A stretch of DNA of 64,000 bases from a virus (Duplodnaviria > Heunggongvirae > Uroviricota > Caudoviricetes). The notes beneath the pieces were generated by a model that was not told the DNA's origin, ran no database searches, and saw only the letters and a list, made by a program, of their open reading frames with translations. Below, piece by piece: positions 1,437 to 59,717 of this stretch (within the stretch, counting starts at the first letter, position 1; each line of letters begins with the position of its first letter). The stretch lies in IMG/VR virus record IMGVR_UViG_3300012942_000032, positions 58,282-122,281 of that record, one strand, 5' to 3'. Made by a program: the position numbers and the translations under genes.

Positions 1437-1521
1437 TGGTGCGGATGGAGGGACTCGAACCCACACGCCTTGCGGCGCCTGCTTCTAAGGCAGGTGCGGC
1501 TACCAATTACGCCACATCCGC
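1437..1521 (-). tRNA. tRNA-Leu (anticodon TAG)
   Basis: The reverse complement gives GCGGATG/CATCCGC acceptor, anticodon stem CCTGC/GCAGG with loop CTTAGAA, long variable arm, T-arm GGGTTCGAGTCCC, CCA. Confidence 0.85.
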
Positions 1522-1559: not shown

Positions 1560-1784
1560 AATTCTATTTATGATTCAATAGCAAACTTTTAGGAATTAGT
1601 GCCGGTGATTGGATTATAAGGACACCGGCGAAACCCCAGTCTATTGCTTAGGCTGCGAGAGCCACCGCGTAGACGTCGTCATTAGCTGCGACATTTTTGG
1701 TTTTTGCTGTTATTTTACATCGGAACGCCCCGATGGATTGTTCAGTCTATATCTACGCCAGAGTCGATATCCGTTAACATCCCC
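1560..1784 (-). ncRNA. ssrA: tmRNA-like coding piece (GGGG acceptor 5' strand, tRNA-like D-analog, tag reading frame)
   Basis: Minus-strand RNA begins GGGGAUGUUAACGGAUAUCGAC (compare E. coli GGGGCUGAUUCUGGAUUCGAC). A PK1-like GGGGCG...GUAAAA...GCAAAAA follows. The resume-like AAUGUC GCA then opens the frame GCA GCU AAU GAC GAC GUC UAC GCG GUG GCU CUC GCA GCC UAA, giving ANDDVYAVALAA-stop, a canonical ...ALAA degradation tag. A CCGGTG...CACCGG hairpin lies downstream. Confidence 0.65.
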
Positions 1785-1818
1785 ATAGGTGCTCGAAGCT
1801 AATTCCGAGCAGCTTGAA

Positions 1819-1895
1819 TTTGGTGGAGATGGCGGGAGTCGAACCCGCGTGTTCCGACGCTTACTTCAACATCTGAGAAATTTCTTTCTCTACAA
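1819..1895 (-). ncRNA. ssrA: tmRNA-like acceptor piece (T-arm, acceptor 3' strand, CCA); 5' boundary approximate
   Basis: Minus-strand GCGUCGGAACAC-GCGGGUUCGACUCCCGC-CAUCUCC-A-CCA resembles the E. coli tmRNA 3' end. Its 3' strand CAUCUCC pairs with GGGGAUG of the coding piece through a G3:U70 wobble. It lies 5' of the coding piece on the same strand. Confidence 0.6.
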
Positions 1896-11140: not shown

Positions 11141-12232
11141 TTAAGCGTACAGCCGAACCATACGCTTCCAATCACCGTTCGGATTGCTTGCGCGCAGGTT
11201 CAACCCTCGAACCAGCTTGCGCAAATTGATGCTGATACTGTTCCTGCTTTCCCTGAGAGCATCGACGACTTCCAACCTTTCCTGCTTCGAGAGATACAAT
11301 CCATCTTCCAGATCCACATTCATGCAGATCTTTTCCATCATTTCCAGTACTTCATCATCCGTGGGATCGATATTGATCATCAGTGCGCGTGTTCGCAGCG
11401 CGCCATCGGGATCGAGCCTGTTGATAGACAGATTGCTAATGAAGATCACTTTACCAGTGAACTCGAAGTGAGATGGCATGAATCCTGCTTCGATATCTTC
11501 TTCTGTGATGGTCTCGGGATCCATCAGATTCTTCGAAGACTTTGTCCATACCAGCTTCCGTACTTTCTTGGTATCGGTTGCTGCTTTGAACAAGTTTCGG
11601 GAATCGAGATCTGCCAGACTGCCATCACTGTCGTCAAACACCAGAATGTCATCTTTGTGCTTGAACATCAGTTTGTAGAGTCCGCTGGGGCTTGAAGTGC
11701 CCGTATTCTTGAAGTAACCCTCACCATCAGACATTCCGAGTTGGGCAAGAGTTTCTTCCACGACATGCGATTTACCAACGCCACCACGACCTGCAACAAA
11801 GCAAGCGTTAGACGCTCCGCACACGGTGAGATTAACCAGAGTCCTGAGATCTTCCAGTTGCTCATCGTAGGGCATTTTGCTTGCGTTGGGATTGATTCGC
11901 TCGACGCCCTCTTCTTGATTGCTTTGCGCAAAATGGGGCGGAGCTTGTGTAGAAGAGCTTTGGCGGGATGCTTGTGCAGGTCTGCTACCTGCAATACCCA
12001 TGTCGAAAAGAATTTGTTGCTTGTTATGGAGCAATTCATTGATATCAGTAACACTACCAATGAAAACAACATCTCGACCCTGTTTACCGAACAAGTGCGA
12101 GAAGTTTCTGCGCAGATGATTCATTACTCTACTTCTGCGCCCTGTGCTCCATTCCGAAACATTCAGCCTTTGTCCTGGTTCCAGTGCTGCTAGTGCATCG
12201 TTGAAAATCTGATCGAAGACATCATTTAACAT
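11141..12232 (-). CDS. P-loop NTPase (Walker A GRGGVGKSH, Walker B ILVFDDSDG)
   Basis: AAGGAG RBS 7 nt upstream of the ATG of MLNDVFDQ. Walker A and B motifs present. Sits in an island of about 50% GC. Confidence 0.65.
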   Translation of the reverse strand: MLNDVFDQIFNDALAALEPGQRLNVSEWSTGRRSRVMNHLRRNFSHLFGKQGRDVVFIGSVTDINELLHNKQQILFDMGIAGSRPAQASRQSSSTQAPPHFAQSNQEEGVERINPNASKMPYDEQLEDLRTLVNLTVCGASNACFVAGRGGVGKSHVVEETLAQLGMSDGEGYFKNTGTSSPSGLYKLMFKHKDDILVFDDSDGSLADLDSRNLFKAATDTKKVRKLVWTKSSKNLMDPETITEEDIEAGFMPSHFEFTGKVIFISNLSINRLDPDGALRTRALMINIDPTDDEVLEMMEKICMNVDLEDGLYLSKQERLEVVDALRESRNSISINLRKLVRGLNLRASNPNGDWKRMVRLYA

Positions 12233-12381
12233 CAACGGCTCCTTATTATGGATTGCGTGCTGGGTCCTGTGTCCCTGCTTGTGCATATATTATTGCATTA
12301 TCAAGTGATGCTGTCAATCAACCTTTCATGGTTTTACCACAGAAATTTCAGTGAACTTGTGATAGTAAATCTGATCTATGA

Positions 12382-24864: not shown

Positions 24865-25229
24865 TCTCCAGTTTCGTCTGCAACTCACTCCGTCTTCACT
24901 ACGCTCGATTCTGCTTCGTCTACAACAATAGAATACGATCATTTATATTGCATTCATTGATAACGATCAAAAGGTCAGAAAGTGATGAAGATGGTCAAAA
25001 TTATATGATCTGTTCTCCTGACGTGCCACTCAAAAGAAAAGGAGCACAAAGGCCCCTAAGGAGTAGGTGTGGTGTGATACTACAAGGAGAGGAGTGAGAA
25101 GCAACAGGACTTAGATCATACACTAAGAGTGGTGTTGTGATCAGACCAAAGGTGCTATGGGTTCAGAAGTGGAACCAATCAGGCGACGATCACCAAGCTC
25201 ACCAAAGCTATCCTTTCTAAGAACCCAGT

Positions 25230-25595
25230 CTAGCCTTCCTCTCCAAACATCAGATCATAGAAGCGTTGCCAGTCACACTCCGCGAAGGTGGTGAGCTTAC
25301 ATTGTTTCATGCAACCAACAGGAGTGAGTACAACGTAGGAGATCAGGTCTGCCATACGTGCGAGCATTTCGTCCTTGTTGTGTACTATCTGATCAGGAGC
25401 ATGCTCGTAGGTAAAGGTGAGGAATCGATCTTGTTCTTCAGGAGAGGTGAAGGTGATAAAGGTCATAGCACCTCTGCCATCGTTGTGTATCTCTGCGACC
25501 TTTTTGTTGTTGCGGGTGAGGTGGTAGCGATAGGCGATCCCATTCCGAGTTTCCATATCGGAGTAGGAGGCGATTGAGTAGCCGTTAGTGATCAT
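25230..25595 (-). CDS. hypothetical protein (121 aa), elevated GC
   Basis: ORF track; translationally coupled (ATGA) to the upstream gene. Confidence 0.5.
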   Translation of the reverse strand: MITNGYSIASYSDMETRNGIAYRYHLTRNNKKVAEIHNDGRGAMTFITFTSPEEQDRFLTFTYEHAPDQIVHNKDEMLARMADLISYVVLTPVGCMKQCKLTTFAECDWQRFYDLMFGEEG

Positions 25596-25789
25596 AGGAC
25601 GAAGGAGAAGATGTGGTTGTCGGAGTTGGTGGGAGTCTGGAGAACATCCCCGAACATTTTGATCAGTAGATCGTTGGAGCAGGAATCGGGATCAGCTTCT
25701 GTTTCGGGAATAGGAGCCTGAGAGGAATTGGAGAGCGCGTGCATGAGGACAGCGATCTGATTGGAGGACAGGCGGATGTTGTAGTTCAT
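25592..25789 (-). CDS. hypothetical small protein (65 aa, start MNYNIRL...)
   Basis: Track ORF 25592..25825; AAGAGG lies upstream of the internal ATG. Confidence 0.4.
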   Translation of the reverse strand: MNYNIRLSSNQIAVLMHALSNSSQAPIPETEADPDSCSNDLLIKMFGDVLQTPTNSDNHIFSFVL

Positions 25790-25803
25790 GTGACCATTAC
25801 CTC

Positions 25804-26023
25804 TTAGGAGTGGAAGGCGTGCCAAGCGCCAGTGATGTAGGAGATGGTACCGACGATCTCCACACCTTCATAAAGATCGTCCTCTGAGAAGGAGCGCATA
25901 GCTCCTGTTTGGATAGCTTTCAAATCTTCAGGAGTGAGGTCTTTGATAGAGGTGACATTGAAACGCTCCAGATACCACTTCACACCGTCTTCGATGTTTT
26001 TGCGTACATCATGCAGGAAAGTC
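25804..26023 (-). CDS. hypothetical small protein (73 aa, start MTFLHDV...)
   Basis: Track ORF 25804..26106; AAGAGG RBS 7 nt upstream of the internal ATG. Confidence 0.45.
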
Positions 26024-26255
26024 ATTCTATTGCCTCTTAGGTGTGCATTGGGAGCATTGCGTCCCTGTATGCACATACTAGCACGCTGCGCACACAGGGC
26101 AAGCATTACATGCGATCTGCATCTATGAAAGTTTAGGAGTAGGTGGTGTGCTGCTATGCGCGGGAGCGTGCTAGTGTACGTGGTGCCTTAGACGCACGCT
26201 GCGCCCGTATAAGCGCGTCCCTGCCGTCCCGTGTGCTAGTGTAGTCCCGTACAGT

Positions 26256-26284
26256 TCCCTGCGCTTGTAGCGCGTTACAAAAGC
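26256..26284 (+). repeat. 29-bp direct repeat copy 2 (TCCCTGCGCTTGTAGCGCGTTACAAAAGC)
   Basis: See copy 1. Confidence 0.7.
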
Positions 26285-26409
26285 CCTTCAGTTCCACTTC
26301 CAAAGAGGAGTAGGAGCACATACGAGGAGGGCAAGGTGGTGCTGAAATAGAGGTGGCAAGAAAGGGAGCATCTCTGCTCCCGATCCTGCTTGCTTGTTGT
26401 GCTGCCGTA

Positions 26410-26913
26410 TTACGCTTCGGCGGACTCGGTCTTCGGAAGCGAACGTGCCGTCTTCAGACCCAGGTTGGCCAGCACCTCGTTCTTGTCGATCTTGCTCACG
26501 TCCCCGATGAAGCGCACGTTGCGGCCGCTCTTCTCGAAGTCTTTCGCGTACAGCTTCCGGATGGTCTGCATCATGCGCACCTTGCGCCCCGCCTTCCACT
26601 CGGTGAGCGTGTCGCCGGCCTGCAGCGCCTGGATGGCCATGTCGAAGACCACGTCGTACTCGGGGTTCTTCGTGCGCTCGGTCTGCTCCGCCGCTTCCTG
26701 CTTGGGAGCTTCCGCTTCCGGCTTGCTGAACGTGACCGTCAAGCTGTTCTCGCCGGCTTCGAACGAGGCACCTTCGAGCTGCTCCAGCGCCTTCTGCGCT
26801 TCGGCGGGATCGACCTTGCTGATCTTGTAGCCGTCGTCGCCGTGCTTGCGCACGCGGTCGAAGGACACGTTGCTGGACTTGAGGTTGGTGCTGATGTCGG
26901 TGGTGGTGTACAT
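26410..26913 (-). CDS. hypothetical protein (167 aa) encoded in a DNA segment of about 62% GC
   Basis: AAGGAG RBS 7 nt upstream. Third-position GC is strongly elevated and unlike the rest of the phage. The overlapping plus-strand ORFs are antisense artefacts. Confidence 0.65.
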   Translation of the reverse strand: MYTTTDISTNLKSSNVSFDRVRKHGDDGYKISKVDPAEAQKALEQLEGASFEAGENSLTVTFSKPEAEAPKQEAAEQTERTKNPEYDVVFDMAIQALQAGDTLTEWKAGRKVRMMQTIRKLYAKDFEKSGRNVRFIGDVSKIDKNEVLANLGLKTARSLPKTESAEA

Positions 26914-26998
26914 GGTGTTATCTCCTTTGCGTGCTAGGGCGGAATTGCCCTTGCTTAGTTGGGGGAAGTTAGCGCGTTGCTCCCTGTCCCTTATGCTT

Positions 26999-27026
26999 AG
27001 TATACGTCTGCGCTTTTGCAGGGCAA
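26999..27026 (-). promoter_or_regulatory. candidate sigma70 promoter (TTGCCC-16-TATACT) for the GC-rich gene
   Basis: Seen on the reverse complement about 80 nt upstream of the ATG at 26913. Confidence 0.4.
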
Positions 27027-27168
27027 GCGTTTTTTTGAACTTTTATAGGCGCGTTCAGCTTGCGTTTAGGAAAGCTTTTGCGTGCGCAGTTTGTAACGAA
27101 CGCGCACGCGCATAACACAAACGCGCTAGGGCTGTCAACGGTTCTCCAAAAAATAATTTTTGCAAGAC

Positions 27169-27197
27169 TTGACACGCCGTTTGCTTTATGCTATGCG
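27169..27197 (+). promoter_or_regulatory. candidate promoter TTGACA-17-TATGCG, preceded by GCAAGACTTGAC
   Basis: Exact -35; weak -10. Confidence 0.35.
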
Positions 27198-27246
27198 CTA
27201 GAAGCCGGGGCAAGGCACTAACACAAAACAGAGGGCAACGCAAGAC

Positions 27247-27275
27247 TTGACGGGAGGGATGCGGCATGCTATACT
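27247..27275 (+). promoter_or_regulatory. strong candidate promoter TTGACG-17-TATACT, preceded by GCAAGACTTGAC
   Basis: Near-consensus -35/-10 with a 17-nt spacer; second copy of the GCAAGACTTGAC box. Confidence 0.55.
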
Positions 27276-27344
27276 AGGCGACCCCCCTGATGGATGTAGA
27301 TCTTGGTCTGAAGCTACAATACCGCCTTAAGGGCCAAGCCATCT

Positions 27345-27530
27345 TTGACTCGCTTCCAATATCACTATGTTCATTCCCAGTATCACTTCTAGAAATATTG
27401 ACTCGCTCCCAATTTACTAGAAAACAGTTACCCGGATCAATACTGGTTTTGACTCGCTCCCAATTTCACTATGTTCATTCCCAATTTACTAGAAGGGGCT
27501 TCGCCTACTCGCAAACAGTTACCCGAGGCT
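27345..27530 (+). repeat. array of three about 50-bp direct repeats, each starting TTGACTCGCTYCC and containing 11-bp CCCAATTTCAC-type sub-repeats (iteron-like)
   Basis: TTGACTCGCT at 27345, 27398 and 27449. Five CCCA(A/G)T(A/T)T(C)AC boxes, some about 20 bp apart. AAACAGTTACCCG(G/A)(A/G) occurs twice. Confidence 0.6.
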
Positions 27531-27565
27531 TTTACAAAATCTGGTATAAAATTTCCAGAATGTAG

Positions 27566-27784
27566 CTACTCCCCAGCTAACCTGATATCAGTTCCCAGCG
27601 GTCCGTATCTACGATTGAGATAAATTTTCAGCTCTACTTTCTTCTCGTCCAAAATCTTAATCGCAGCTACAATATCCTCTGTAGACTTTCCCTTAGTAAA
27701 CTGATGCACACAATCATTAAGCAGATGTCTGAACTTTGATAGTTTCATAACATAATCGTTAGTGATAAGCAAATACAATAACAC
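27566..27784 (-). CDS. hypothetical protein (72 aa)
   Basis: ORF track. Confidence 0.45.
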   Translation of the reverse strand: MLLYLLITNDYVMKLSKFRHLLNDCVHQFTKGKSTEDIVAAIKILDEKKVELKIYLNRRYGPLGTDIRLAGE

Positions 27785-27816
27785 ATATATTATTCAGAGA
27801 TTTAAAATATCTTCTG

Positions 27817-28083
27817 TCATACTATTGTTATTCTCTTTTGAGCATTCTTGGGAAACAGGGCCGCGGACTCAAGTTCATCCATATCAATAAAGGTATCTGC
27901 CTGGACAGGTTTTCCATTGATATGAAGTGCCTGGTTCTTTATCCAACGAGCAAGCTCAGAGTTGGAGGCAACCTGCTTGGGATTTTCTTTTGACCAGAAT
28001 CCAGGGGATCGGAAATTATGAACAGTTCGGAGCCATTGAAGAGCTTTCATCTTGGGTGCCTCCCTGAGGAATAAACAGACCAT
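27817..28083 (-). CDS. hypothetical protein, possible S4-like RNA-binding fold (about 88 aa)
   Basis: ELARWIKNQALHINGKPVQ is a weak S4-domain resemblance. Confidence 0.35.
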   Translation of the reverse strand: MVCLFLREAPKMKALQWLRTVHNFRSPGFWSKENPKQVASNSELARWIKNQALHINGKPVQADTFIDMDELESAALFPKNAQKRITIV

Positions 28084-28243
28084 GGGCATATCTAAAACCT
28101 GCAATGAACGTGCTCAGATGTCTCTGATAATCGTTCCTCAGGTGCAGCTTAGAACCTTCAGAACATTCGAGTTCCTCGATACCAGCTGCACTTAAATTAT
28201 AAAACCTTTCAAAGGCTTCTACAAGTTTATCATAGGCTTCCAT
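28016..28243 (-). CDS. hypothetical protein (75 aa)
   Basis: ORF track. Confidence 0.4.
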   Translation of the reverse strand: MEAYDKLVEAFERFYNLSAAGIEELECSEGSKLHLRNDYQRHLSTFIAGFRYAHGLFIPQGGTQDESSSMAPNCS

Positions 28244-28256
28244 TGTATGAACTCTC

Positions 28257-28487
28257 TTAGATCTTTACAGGAAACTGATCTTGGTTAATTGTGATTGGTT
28301 TATGATTCGGCTCTTGAATCTTATGGAACAAGGTTGGTACAAATGGAGCAAAGATCTTTCCTTCTCTGATTACAATGATTGAGTAGTTCCAATCTTGACC
28401 ATCGAAGATTGCTCCAATATACAGACCATCGTTCTTAGGCTTTGTTGATGTCCAGAATTGCATGATGTTTACACCGTATAGAAACAA
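28257..28487 (-). CDS. hypothetical protein (76 aa)
   Basis: ORF track. Confidence 0.45.
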   Translation of the reverse strand: MFLYGVNIMQFWTSTKPKNDGLYIGAIFDGQDWNYSIIVIREGKIFAPFVPTLFHKIQEPNHKPITINQDQFPVKI

Positions 28488-28654
28488 TTTTCTAAGATAT
28501 AGTTGATCAGAGCATCTCTGGCATCCTGAGCCTCAGAAACATACTTGCCCCAAGACTTGTCTGAACAAAGTTGGTCGTGTCTGGCACTCTGCCTATCTTG
28601 GATCTTATACTCAAAAATCTGAATAAGATCTTCTAATGTAGTTTGACTAAGCAT
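28469..28654 (-). CDS. hypothetical protein (61 aa)
   Basis: ORF track. Confidence 0.4.
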   Translation of the reverse strand: MLSQTTLEDLIQIFEYKIQDRQSARHDQLCSDKSWGKYVSEAQDARDALINYILENCFYTV

Positions 28655-28952
28655 CTTTCCACCTGAGAATCTTGAAAATTGATTTGATCTTTTGAAAGAA
28701 TCCGTTTACAGGAGTTCCATGATCTTTAGAAGAATGAATATCGTCCATCCAGGCATTTCGCGCTTTCAGCGCCCGCTCAATTCTTTCAACTGACCAAGTC
28801 TTGCAGTTTTCAGGAACATCATGATTGCTGTAGACTGTTTTCCAGACAGGGAAATCTCCATGATTCTCAACTTCTAAGAACTTATGGTCATCAAAAATGC
28901 TGAATTGCCTCAGACCATATTTTCCATCTGCAAACTTAACGATCTTAGCCAT
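28647..28952 (-). CDS. hypothetical protein (101 aa); paralog of 29221..29541
   Basis: Shared N-terminus MAKIVKFADGKYGLR / MKLVSFNNGFWGLR. Confidence 0.5.
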   Translation of the reverse strand: MAKIVKFADGKYGLRQFSIFDDHKFLEVENHGDFPVWKTVYSNHDVPENCKTWSVERIERALKARNAWMDDIHSSKDHGTPVNGFFQKIKSIFKILRWKDA

Positions 28953-29202
28953 TTTGGAAGGCCTTACGTGCTTTATCTGCTCTGGATAAAATCGGAGGAA
29001 CTTTGGTACGAATAGATTCGAAAAGTTCGATCAAACCCTTCTCATAAGGTTGCATATAAGACTTTCCCAGATGATCGTAGAATACTTTCAGGAAGCTTTC
29101 GTGTCCGTATCCAACAAGTGCATCTAGGGCTCGCAATTCCTGTTCGTTAAAAGTCATCGTTGCTGAGACTTCAACCTTAGGTTGCTGAGTAATCTGAGCC
29201 AT
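28945..29202 (-). CDS. hypothetical protein (85 aa)
   Basis: ORF track. Confidence 0.45.
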   Translation of the reverse strand: MAQITQQPKVEVSATMTFNEQELRALDALVGYGHESFLKVFYDHLGKSYMQPYEKGLIELFESIRTKVPPILSRADKARKAFQNG

Positions 29203-59671: not shown

Positions 59672-59717
59672 ACCCGCCTCGCCTCTCTTTGAAGCGCAAA
59701 TAGGCGGGTCTTCTTGA
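59672..59717 (+). terminator. terminator-like hairpin after the tube gene
   Basis: CCCGCCT...AGGCGGG followed by TCTTCTT. Confidence 0.5.

What the first reader, a model, noticed from the sequence alone, without database searches (positions are those of the whole stretch)
27161..27540. Twin promoters feeding an iteron-like direct-repeat array: candidate replication origin or ncRNA locus
Two GCAAGACTTGAC boxes provide TTGACA-17-TATGCG and near-consensus TTGACG-17-TATACT promoters on the plus strand, while all neighbouring genes are on the minus strand. Downstream lies a protein-coding-implausible region of about 190 bp. It holds three direct repeats beginning TTGACTCGCT(T/C)CC and five 11-bp CCCA(A/G)T(A/T)TCAC boxes, some spaced about 20 bp apart (two helical turns). 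A duplicated AAACAGTTACCCG(G/A) box is also present. T4 origins are promoter-primed, and iteron arrays typify origin or partition sites. Alternatively this is a structured, promoter-driven ncRNA. The 91-aa ORF called here by the track is built from the repeats and is probably not real.
Basis: partly seen in the sequence, partly recalled or inferred. Interest (0 to 1): 0.7.

Follow-up and report, generated by a model that had tools for sequence, protein, structure and literature searches.

The report
Conserved promoter-fed noncoding cassette in phage
The repeats and promoters are real, but the "iteron array" is a recent local triplication inside a conserved, non-coding, promoter-fed element that always sits beside an orphan 167-residue protein gene in a small group of uncultured T4-like phages; nothing tested points to a replication origin or a folded RNA, and its function is still unknown.

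Summary
The twin GCAAGACTTGAC boxes, one good extended -10 promoter (27247-27275), the three TTGACTCGCT repeats and the two AAACAGTTACCCG boxes are all present and far beyond chance. The 91-aa ORF is not conserved.

The window is an uncultured T4-like myovirus. Seven related loci carry the same element, always divergent from a homologue of the 167-aa gene at 26410-26913.

Conserved across them:
- plus-strand promoters;
- a near-invariant 21-mer (CCCCCCTGATGGATGTAC...) at or next to the predicted start;
- a roughly 90-nt 5' block ending in the first TCCCAA-N-TCAC box at +71;
- short motifs (AAACAGTTACCCG, TAGCTACTCCCC).

The array itself is not conserved. The window holds a lineage-specific ~52-bp tandem triplication, one relative has a single unit, and others have amplified different units.

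No Rfam match, no excess folding energy and no consensus helix were found. There are no DnaA boxes and no AT-rich stretch near the promoters, and the skew minimum lies at 33-34 kb.

Best reading (about 0.4): an early, C-rich, unstructured non-coding transcript that carries sequence motifs, paired with a possibly nucleic-acid-binding protein. An origin remains possible but is unsupported (about 0.1). Interest is moderate to low.

The parts
27162..27197 (+). Upstream promoter-like site P1: GCAAGAC box, TTGACA (27169-27174), 17-nt spacer, TG-extended TATGCG (27192-27197)
   Evidence: The -10 is weak and the site is not listed by the scan. It is a window-specific duplicate of P2 (D3).
27240..27275 (+). 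Main promoter-like site P2: GCAAGAC box, TTGACG (27247-27252), 17-nt spacer, TG-extended TATACT (27270-27275). Predicted start is near 27279-27283.
   Evidence: 10 of 12 matches, TG present. Equivalent TG-extended promoters sit 6-7 nt (L005, L041) or about 25-32 nt (L007, L008, L010) upstream of the C-run.
27282..27302 (+). Near-invariant core CCCCCCTGATGGATGTA(G/C)
   Evidence: Unique in the window even at 3 mismatches. The 17-mer CCTGATGGATGTACTTT is identical in L005, L007, L008, L011 and L042 (L041 keeps TGATGGATGTACTTT before its contig ends), although the partner proteins are only 52-72% identical to the window's.
27282..27366 (+). Conserved 5' block: core, AGCTACA (27312-27318), CCTTAAGG (27325-27332), first box TCCAATATCACT (27355-27366)
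   Evidence: Alignments A2 and A3. AGCTAC(A/T) sits at +28/+29 in all seven loci. The first box sits at +67 to +71 in L005, L010 and L011 and at about +71 in the window (27355).
27345..27530 (+). Lineage-specific tandem triplication: units 27345-27397, 27398-27448 and 27449-27530, period 53/51 nt.
   Evidence: (D1, D2, D4-D6). Relative to L010, the window carries a 31-nt and a 36-nt duplicated insertion.
27422..27434 (+). AAACAGTTACCCG motif, copy 1
   Evidence: The same motif occurs 1-3 times, always in the same orientation, in L005, L010 and L042.
27495..27525 (+). G-rich insert GGGGCTTCGCCTACTCG (27495-27511) followed by AAACAGTTACCCG copy 2 (27513-27525)
   Evidence: L010 has two homologous copies of the insert plus motif.
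27552..27591 (+). Conserved 3' block TTTCCAGAATGTAGCTACTCCCC...ACCTGATATCAG. It overlaps the last codons of the orphan 72-aa ORF.
   Evidence: TAGCTACTCCCC lies at +177 in L005, +217 in L010 and +279 in the window. The first BLAST of the window against L005 matched 27552-27585.
26410..26913 (-). Partner gene: 167-aa orphan protein, divergently transcribed and present next to the element in every relative
   Evidence: GC3 is 0.90 against about 0.4 for neighbouring genes. The AlphaFold2 model (pLDDT 72) shows an N-terminal alpha-beta-beta-alpha-beta-beta domain and a C-terminal helix/beta-hairpin domain. No Pfam, PHROG, PADLOC or significant NCBIfam match.
26914..27026 (-). Promoter of the partner gene (TTGCCC-16-TATACT, 27026-26999) and its roughly 80-nt leader. 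The leader has a hairpin at 26936-26951 with the loop AAUUCC.
   Evidence: GCGGAATTG is conserved in 7 loci. Stem pair 11-22 changes as GC:3, CG:2, UA:2, and only 1 of 500 shuffles reaches the observed covariation score.
26364..26381 (-). Terminator-like hairpin closing the 167-aa transcription unit
   Evidence: 7-bp stem, 5 GC pairs, T-rich tail.

Best explanation
This is a small accessory cassette in the early, hyper-variable region of an uncultured T4-like phage.

One or two host-type (sigma-70, TG-extended -10) promoters point against the flow of all surrounding genes. They fire into about 300 nt of non-coding DNA. The product would be a C-rich, G-poor RNA (28% C, 16% G) that is thermodynamically unstructured.

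The RNA would begin at or near a near-invariant 21-mer. It would carry short conserved motifs, all in one orientation: TCCCAA-N-TCAC, TTTCCCAGAA, AAACAGTTACCCG and TAGCTACTCCCC.

I infer that these motifs act as sequence-specific, single-strand recognition sites. The most obvious candidate ligand is the divergently encoded 167-aa protein, which is strongly codon-optimised. Its model shows a ferredoxin- or RRM-like domain plus a helix/beta-hairpin domain that could be a winged helix, though no fold search supports either. The pair would then form a regulator-and-decoy, or autoregulatory, module.

The region downstream of the conserved 5' block evolves by tandem amplification. In this phage a ~52-bp unit was triplicated, which produces the iteron-like look.

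Shown: the anatomy, the non-coding status, conservation of the promoters, core and motifs, linkage to the protein gene, and the lineage-specific origin of the array.

Inferred: that the element is transcribed, that the RNA rather than the DNA is the functional form, and that the 167-aa protein is the partner. Because the RNA is untranslated, C-rich and unstructured, its 3' end is probably set by Rho rather than by an intrinsic terminator.
For: - Promoters: for P2. Homologous TG-extended promoters lie upstream of the core in L005, L041, L007, L008 and L010.
- Non-coding status: stop codons in the 91-aa frame in L005 and L010, and frame-independent tblastx similarity.
- Purifying selection on sequence: the core 17- to 21-mer is identical across loci whose partner proteins are 52-72% identical to the window's. 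The 5' block has conserved spacing, with AGCTAC at +28/29 and the first box at +67 to +71.
- Orientation: every copy of every motif lies on the promoter's strand.
- Linkage: all eight loci found through the 167-aa protein carry the element upstream and divergent.
- Partner is a real, constrained protein. It has extreme GC3 and its own promoter, leader hairpin and terminator.
- Its C-terminal domain recurs fused to a P-loop ATPase in the same phage (E = 8e-15).
- The array is a recent triplication. It is unchanged in a second sample of the same phage.
Against: - There are no expression data, so transcription is inferred from consensus matches only. Promoter-like sites in the region overall are no more frequent than in shuffles.
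- In L011 and L042 no TG-extended promoter precedes the core. The only candidate there (TTGACA-17/18-TACTTT) would place the 21-mer in the promoter spacer, which would fit a DNA operator better than an RNA 5' end.
- No RNA structure, no Rfam family and no intrinsic terminator were found.
- No complementary target was found in the 64-kb window.
- Only three full-length copies exist, so covariation tests have little power.
Confidence: 0.4

Rival explanations
1. A DNA-level protein-binding array, possibly a replication origin. The 21-mer and the direct repeats would be double-stranded binding sites for the adjacent, possibly winged-helix-like protein. They would act either as an operator set controlling the divergent promoters or, as iterons of a promoter-activated origin comparable to T4 oriE or an iteron plasmid.
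For: - A gene for a possibly DNA-binding protein lies next to same-orientation direct repeats, as in iteron replicons.
- In L011, L042, L007 and L008 the 21-mer lies between a TTGAC box and a TACTTT hexamer, an operator-like position.
- The same protein domain is fused to a P-loop ATPase elsewhere in the phage.
- The AT-richest 40-mer of the neighbourhood lies about 490 bp downstream of P2.
Against: - Array copy number, spacing and helical phase are not conserved. The window's array is a recent triplication and L010 has one unit.
- There are no DnaA-like boxes, and no AT-rich unwinding stretch lies near the promoter.
- The skew minimum in the window is at 33-34 kb.
- The motifs spread over 300 nt downstream of the promoters rather than overlapping them.
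- The 167-aa protein shows no sequence relation to T4 MotA (hhalign probability 0.8%) and has no significant match in the solved-structure searches. The T4 RepE ORFs are 45-50 aa and sit antisense inside gene 5; their sequences were not compared.
Confidence: 0.2
2. Mostly neutral debris of a hyper-variable region. Duplicated early promoters and slippage repeats of the kind described around PeSL cassettes in T4-type phages, with no function beyond promoter activity.
For: - Different lineages have amplified different units: a 10-nt CTCTGTATCT repeat in L007, a 44-nt unit in L042, a 66-nt unit in L011 and a 52-nt unit here.
- The twin promoter boxes are a window-specific duplication.
- Five relatives' contigs end inside the repeats.
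- PeSL papers describe multiple degraded, mis-spaced promoter copies caused by recombinational slippage (PMC4122927).
- More distant phages that share the neighbouring 77-aa gene lack the cassette entirely.
Against: - The 17- to 21-mer core, the spacing of the 5' block and the 11- to 13-nt motifs are retained across loci whose coding sequences have diverged to 52-72% protein identity. Neutral sequence would not survive that.
- The promoters face no ORF, unlike PeSLs.
Confidence: 0.2
3. A structured non-coding RNA (ribozyme, riboswitch or other folded RNA) transcribed from P2.
For: - One candidate stem has a both-sides change. TTTCCCAGAA/TTCTGGGAAA is a perfect 10-bp pairing in L010. The window's equivalent, TTTACTAGA/TCTGGTATAAA, keeps pairing through an A-U for C-G swap and a G-U pair (sequence reading).
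- A short GGGG/CCUU hairpin in the G-rich insert would need G-U pairs that exist only on the plus strand.
Against: - Folding energy is no better than shuffles in three loci.
- RNAalifold finds only 2 invariant pairs in the seven-sequence core alignment.
- No Rfam match at E up to 1 in the window or E up to 5 in five relatives.
- The transcript has only 16% G.
Confidence: 0.05
4. The 91-aa ORF at 27290-27565 is a real protein-coding gene.
For: An ATG-initiated open frame of 91 codons exists.
Against: - There is no ribosome-binding sequence; CCCCCCTG precedes the ATG.
- The frame stops after 6-15 codons in L005, L007 and L010.
- No family match in four libraries.
- The Logan gene calls on the same phage leave the stretch uncalled.
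Confidence: 0.02

Closest known systems
Bacteriophage T4 oriE (early promoter, antisense primer RNA, 12-nt iterons; PMC3016281)
   Same: T4-like phage. A host-type early promoter fires against the local direction of transcription into a set of same-orientation direct repeats. Small phage-specific ORFs are associated with it.
   Different: - T4 oriE repeats are evenly spaced 12-mers inside gene 5 and recur in syntenic regions of close relatives. Here the spacing is 21, 32, 51 and 21 nt and the array is lineage-specific.
- T4 repEA and repEB are 45-50 aa ORFs, not a 167-aa two-domain protein.
- No replication evidence is available here.
T4 oriF/oriG R-loop origins
   Same: A promoter whose transcript could prime DNA synthesis.
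   Different: - Those origins need a MotA-dependent middle promoter and an A+T-rich unwinding element within a roughly 100-bp minimal origin (PMC3016281).
- Here the promoters are sigma-70 extended -10 types.
- The first 300 nt downstream are 42-49% G+C, and the transcript is C-rich rather than G-rich.
Iteron-type replicons (R6K gamma, lambda ori; from general knowledge also pPS10, F and P1)
   Same: A gene for a possibly DNA-binding protein lies adjacent to direct repeats.
   Different: - No regular spacing of about 22 bp and no conserved repeat number.
- No DnaA boxes or adjacent AT-rich region.
- No detectable homology of the protein to any solved structure, by sequence or by fold.
PeSL promoter-early stem-loop cassettes of T4-type hyperplastic regions (PMC2839356, PMC4122927)
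   Same: - Sigma-70-like early promoters in the variable early region, with duplicated and degraded promoter copies.
- The cassette behaves like an accessory module. The 167-aa gene unit (stem-loop, promoter, leader, ORF, terminator) resembles a PeSL-flanked ORF.
   Different: - The plus-strand promoters have no ORF downstream.
- Their motif is not dispersed through the window (3 hits, 2 of them here).
- They are followed by a conserved non-coding block.
Protein-sequestering small RNAs with repeated motifs (CsrB/RsmZ, CrcZ)
   Same: A 'works like' analogy only: an RNA with repeated short single-strand motifs whose copy number varies between lineages.
   Different: - GGA motifs are not enriched (2 observed, 2.16 expected).
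- The motifs are not presented in hairpin loops.
- No Rfam match.

Membership tests
Iteron-type replication origin | Three or more direct repeats of fixed length at regular, helically phased spacing | tested here: not met
   Box spacings are 21, 32, 51 and 21 nt. Two of the five boxes are shorter variants. The units arise from a 53/51-nt tandem duplication.
Iteron-type replication origin | The array is conserved in related genomes | tested here: not met
   L010 has one unit, L005 two boxes 17 nt apart, L011 one box and L042 none in the 200 nt available.
Iteron-type replication origin | Adjacent AT-rich unwinding region and/or DnaA boxes | tested here: not met
   No TTATCCACA site within one mismatch in 26000-28500. 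The nearest 40-mer of at least 80% AT is at 27771-27810, about 490 bp from P2.
Iteron-type replication origin | A cognate initiator protein binds the repeats, and replication starts here | not testable with these tools
   Needs EMSA or footprinting and marker-frequency or 2D-gel analysis. The window's GC-skew minimum is at 33-34 kb, but skew in T4-like phages follows transcription.
T4 oriF/oriG-type R-loop origin | MotA-box middle promoter plus an A+T-rich unwinding element within a roughly 100-bp minimal origin | tested here: not met
   The promoters are -35/-10 sigma-70 types. A TTTGCTTTA string in P1 abuts the -10 rather than sitting at -30. Downstream G+C is 42-49%.
Any described RNA family (Rfam 15) | Covariance-model match | tested here: not met
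   No hit at E up to 1 in window 25500-29000 and none at E up to 5 in five relatives. The whole-window gathering search finds only tRNAs, a permuted tmRNA and an abiF motif elsewhere.
Structured non-coding RNA (generic) | Folding energy below shuffled controls | tested here: not met
   z = +0.85 (window plus strand), +0.23 (minus strand), -0.42 (L010) and +0.63 (L005 insert).
Structured non-coding RNA (generic) | Helices supported by covariation | tested here: inconclusive
   RNAalifold finds no helix in the seven-sequence core. Only three full-length copies exist. One candidate stem with a compensatory change was seen by eye.
Promoter-driven non-coding transcript | Promoter on the correct strand, conserved in position, with no conserved ORF downstream | tested here: met
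   for the promoters. for the absence of a conserved ORF. Caveat: two relatives (L011, L042) lack the TG-extended promoter.
Promoter-driven non-coding transcript | A detected transcript with defined 5' and 3' ends | not testable with these tools
   No expression data. No intrinsic terminator was found on the plus strand after the element.
CsrB/RsmZ-type sponge RNA | Many GGA motifs, mostly in hairpin loops | tested here: not met
   2 GGA observed against 2.16 expected. The core does contain a single AUGGAUGU, or AAGGAUGU in L010, that resembles a CsrA site.
Type III toxin-antitoxin (ToxIN-like) | Tandem RNA repeats upstream of, and co-directional with, an endoribonuclease toxin gene | tested here: not met
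   The protein gene is divergent, not downstream. The repeat unit is not conserved between relatives. No PADLOC match.
CRISPR or mini-CRISPR array | Identical 24-48-nt repeats separated by unique spacers of similar length | tested here: not met
   The repeats are whole duplicated units with no unique spacers.
PeSL cassette | Stem-loop plus early promoter plus Shine-Dalgarno sequence plus ORF, repeated through the hyperplastic region | tested here: not met
   No ORF follows the plus-strand promoters. The promoter motif is not dispersed. The minus-strand unit of the 167-aa gene has a PeSL-like layout, but its dispersal was not shown.

The most novel reading that the evidence does not exclude
A previously undescribed phage ribonucleoprotein module. 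An abundant early protein (RRM-like domain plus a possible winged-helix domain) recognises an AAUUCC-loop hairpin in its own mRNA leader. A divergently transcribed, unstructured decoy RNA carries repeated recognition motifs. The RNA evolves by tandem amplification and titrates the protein or a host factor during takeover.
Probability: 0.12. Interest if true: 0.7.

Novelty: new member of a known kind. Interest (0 to 1): 0.35.

Why it matters
If the element is transcribed and bound by its partner protein, it would add a new RNA-protein regulatory pair to the early programme of T4-like phages. It would also give a function to two orphan sequences.

It is equally a cautionary case. Direct repeats that look like iterons in one genome turned out to be a recent tandem triplication once relatives were compared.

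As things stand, this is a rare, uncharacterised non-coding element, known from about eight metagenomic contigs, with no experimental handle.

Tried and rejected
Searches for relatives that found nothing:
- Exact-pattern scans of IMG/VR with the repeat, the core and the 3' motif gave only chance or coding matches. L016, the one that looked similar, is coding.
- The core pattern gave nothing in JGI metagenome contigs. GTDB genomes gave one chance hit in Methanosarcina.
- Protein-guided scans of IMG/VR and the metagenome contigs were empty.
- BLAST against 50,697 phage records found nothing by DNA or by protein. BLAST against E. coli genomes also found nothing.

Identifying the partner protein:
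- An exhaustive HMMER search with the 167-aa family found only its own two clusters, the fused paralogue and one repetitive giant protein.
- A MotA relationship was suggested by weak Foldseek hits and rejected by hhalign (probability 0.8%).
- A profile search of the Protein Data Bank sequences gave nothing below E = 0.17.

Functional ideas for the RNA:
- Antisense targets for the putative RNA within the window: none below E = 1.
- A CsrA-sponge idea: GGA is not enriched.
- A resemblance of some motifs to the complement of 5S rRNA, recalled from memory, was dropped. It was not tested against any likely host, and the BLAST against E. coli genomes found nothing.
- A clustering of short palindromes was counted by eye at about the chance level and dropped.

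Gene-level checks:
- I guessed that the 72-aa ORF is homologous to the ORF flanking the element in L005. BLASTP found no alignment.
- The unit start TTGACT...TATGTT was considered as an internal promoter. It was rejected because the spacer is 15 nt and the TTGAC is not conserved in L010 or L005.
Full report
**Context**

The window is a contig of an uncultured T4-like myovirus. It encodes gp6-, gp8- and gp18-like baseplate and tail domains. Its gp6 homologue is 50-55% identical to those of Acidovorax phage ACP17, Xanthomonas phage X1 and the Stenotrophomonas Moby-like phages. Overall G+C is about 40%.

The finding lies in a 650-bp gap between two minus-strand ORFs. One is the 72-aa ORF at 27566-27784. 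The other is a 167-aa ORF at 26410-26913.

**Observation**

- GCAAGACTTGAC occurs exactly at 27162 and 27240.
- The second copy belongs to a good sigma-70-type promoter: TTGACG, 17 nt, TG-extended TATACT, at 27247-27275.
- The first copy has a perfect -35 and a TG extension but a weak -10, TATGCG.
- TTGACTCGCTYCCAAT occurs three times (27345, 27398, 27449) and AAACAGTTACCCG twice (27422, 27513). Neither occurs anywhere else in 64 kb.
- Only three of the five 11-bp boxes fit the stated consensus. The other two lack one base.

The repetition is far beyond chance. 126 of 191 bases lie in repeated 10-mers, against at most 24 in 1000 simulations.

**Relatives**

DNA searches of IMG/VR, JGI metagenome contigs, GTDB genomes and GenBank phages found nothing related. 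The 167-aa protein has eight homologues at 52-72% identity in metagenome assemblies. Their contigs could be fetched.

In every one, the region upstream of the gene and divergent from it carries the same element. tblastx shows that L005, L007, L008 and L010 are syntenic relatives of the window phage. Two more distant phages share only the neighbouring 77-aa gene and lack the cassette.

**What is conserved**

1. Plus-strand TG-extended promoters. They sit 6-7 nt upstream of a C-run in the window, L005 and L041, and about 25-32 nt upstream in L007, L008 and L010.
2. A near-invariant core, CCCCCCTGATGGATGTAC(TTT). The 17-mer is identical in L005, L007, L008, L011 and L042, despite partner proteins that are as little as 52% identical to the window's.
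3. A 5' block of about 90 nt with fixed spacing. AGCTAC(A/T) sits at +28/29, CTTAAGG near +42 and the first TCCCAA-N-TCAC box at +67 to +71.
4. Short motifs further downstream, always in the same orientation: TTTCCCAGAA, AAACAGTTACCCG (1-3 copies per locus) and TAGCTACTCCCC (at +177, +217 and +279).

**What is not conserved**

The array is not conserved. Aligned with L010, the window has two duplicated insertions of 31 and 36 nt. These turn a single ancestral unit into three units of 53, 51 and about 80 nt. The ancestral unit reads TTGACTCGC, box, TATGTTCAT, box/AGAA, then AAACAGTTACCCG.

L005 has two boxes 17 nt apart and L011 has one. Other lineages have amplified quite different units in the same place: a 10-nt repeat in L007, a 44-nt unit in L042 and a 66-nt unit in L011. 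Five of the relatives' contigs end inside this repeat zone. The twin GCAAGACTTGAC promoter boxes are likewise a window-specific duplication. A second sample of the same phage is 5233/5234 identical over this region, with the same array.

**Coding potential**

The 91-aa frame is interrupted after a few codons in L005, L007 and L010. tblastx similarity is the same in all three frames. No protein family matches it.

The flanking 72-aa ORF is itself doubtful.
- It has no homologue among 5.8 billion proteins other than itself.
- It is absent from L010.
- It is unrelated to the ORF at the same place in L005.
- One gene caller left the whole 904 bp between the 77-aa and 167-aa genes uncalled.

**RNA structure**

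Folding energies are indistinguishable from shuffled controls in the window on both strands, in L010 and in the L005 insert. The z-scores are +0.85, +0.23, -0.42 and +0.63. RNAalifold finds no helix in the seven-sequence core alignment. Rfam gives no hit even at permissive thresholds.

The putative transcript is 28% C and 16% G. That leaves little pairing potential. From general knowledge of Rho utilisation sites, it would make an untranslated transcript a good Rho substrate, which would explain the lack of an intrinsic terminator.

By eye, one stem (TTTCCCAGAA/TTCTGGGAAA in L010) is kept in the window through a compensatory change and a G-U pair. With three full-length copies this is anecdotal.

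**Origin hypothesis**

T4 oriE does combine an early promoter, an antisense primer RNA and evenly spaced 12-nt repeats. oriF and oriG combine a MotA-dependent promoter with an AT-rich unwinding element within a roughly 100-bp minimal origin (PMC3016281; T4 annotation).

Here none of the matching features was found.
- The repeats are unevenly spaced, and the array is not conserved.
- No DnaA-like box exists within 2.5 kb.
- The nearest strongly AT-rich stretch is about 490 bp downstream.
- The cumulative skew minimum of the window lies at 33-34 kb, where gene orientation flips.

None of this excludes an origin. T4 origins share no motif, and skew follows transcription. It does remove the specific evidence offered for one.

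**The partner gene**

The 167-aa ORF is a real, constrained protein with 63 invariant positions in nine sequences. Its GC3 is 0.90 in a phage whose neighbouring genes have about 0.4, and its homologues show 0.72-0.89. This points to selection for high expression in a GC-rich host, or to foreign origin. It has its own promoter and terminator.

Its leader carries a hairpin whose loop, AAUUCC, is identical in seven loci (AUUCC in L007) while the stem covaries. Pair 11-22 reads GC, CG or UA, and 1 of 500 shuffles reaches the observed score.

The AlphaFold2 model (pLDDT 72) has two domains joined by a disordered acidic linker. The N-terminal domain is alpha-beta-beta-alpha-beta-beta. The C-terminal domain is helix-helix-beta-hairpin-helix.

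Fold and profile searches give only weak hits.
- For the first domain: ferredoxin-like and RRM-like proteins.
- For the second domain, or for unassigned parts of the model (the tables do not say which query residues are matched): PadR, IscR and Sso10a winged-helix proteins.
A nucleic-acid-binding role is a lead, not a result.

The C-terminal domain recurs at the N-terminus of a 381-aa P-loop ATPase encoded at 11141-12286 (35% identity, E = 8e-15). That ATPase part is related to T4 NrdC.10-type ORFs of unknown function.

**Interpretation**

The data best fit an accessory two-part cassette. One part is a highly expressed orphan protein gene. The other is a divergent, promoter-fed, non-coding and unstructured element whose sequence motifs, rather than any fold, are under selection. 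Its downstream part is prone to tandem amplification.

I favour an RNA-level role, with the motifs as single-strand recognition sites and the neighbouring protein as the likeliest ligand. Three observations point that way:
- every motif lies on the promoter's strand;
- the motifs extend 300 nt downstream of the promoters;
- the core sits at the predicted start in two separate clades.

A DNA-level operator or iteron role is the main rival. Two relatives place the 21-mer inside a promoter spacer, and the partner may be a DNA-binding protein. A largely neutral origin is contradicted by the invariance of the core and motifs. It does explain the array itself.

**Verdict**

- The iteron and origin interpretation is not supported.
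- The non-coding RNA alternative is supported, but the 'structured' part of it is not.
- The function is unknown.
- Novelty is modest: an undescribed non-coding element and orphan protein pair in a rare phage clade.

Noticed in passing
window 1648-1884 (-), with tRNAs at 401-485, 926-1000 and 1437-1521 (-): The phage encodes a permuted (two-piece type) tmRNA. It matches Rfam RF04321 at 63.7 bits against a gathering score of 47. ARAGORN also calls it, with the tag peptide AKTKNVAANDDVYAVALAA. It lies within a cluster of three tRNA genes.
   Followed up: partly
window 59673-59709 (+): A match to the abiF RNA motif (RF03085) just above the gathering score, 39.4 against 37 bits, inside the structural-gene block.
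   Followed up: no
window 26410-26913 (-): The 167-aa orphan gene has GC3 = 0.90 (62% G+C) in a 40% G+C phage. Its homologues show GC3 of 0.72-0.89. It is a self-contained unit with its own promoter, leader and terminator.
   Followed up: yes
window 26936-26951 (mRNA on the minus strand): The leader of the 167-aa mRNA carries a hairpin whose loop is AAUUCC in seven of eight loci (AUUCC in L007), while the stem covaries (GC, CG or UA at one pair). Several relatives have a second covarying hairpin just before the Shine-Dalgarno sequence. It looks like a translational operator.
   Followed up: partly
window 11141-12286 (-): A 381-aa paralogue. Its N-terminal domain is 35% identical (E = 8e-15) to the C-terminal domain of the 167-aa protein. 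It is fused to a P-loop ATPase related to T4 NrdC.10-type ORFs (phrog_1250, function unknown). It lies divergent from the Laminin_G_3 fibre-like genes, and the arrangement is conserved in the L005-type phage (L049).
   Followed up: partly
window 27566-27784 (-): The 72-aa ORF next to the element matches only its own sequence among 5.8 billion proteins. It is absent from L010 and unrelated to the ORF at the same position in L005. One gene caller leaves the whole 904 bp between the 77-aa and 167-aa genes uncalled. It may not be a gene.
   Followed up: partly
L006 1-120, L007 1-60, L008 1-120, L011 1-300, L042 1-200: Five relatives' contigs end inside the variable repeat part of the element. This suggests that assemblies break there because of repeats or population heterogeneity.
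   Followed up: no
L005 5165-5625 (also L041, L007, L011): Some relatives carry an extra 400-500 bp between the 167-aa gene and the core. It holds one or two additional plus-strand TG-extended promoters and a stretch rich in CGCATAG/GACATA, with no excess folding energy (z = +0.63).
   Followed up: partly
window about 24900-27200: A local island of raised G+C (up to 65%) and inverted GC skew relative to the surrounding minus-strand genes. The finding sits at its right-hand edge.
   Followed up: no
window 27771-27810: The AT-richest 40-mer near the locus (85% A+T; only four 40-mer start positions in the whole window reach that level). It lies between the 72-aa ORF and the 77/95-aa gene, about 490 bp downstream of P2.
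   Followed up: no
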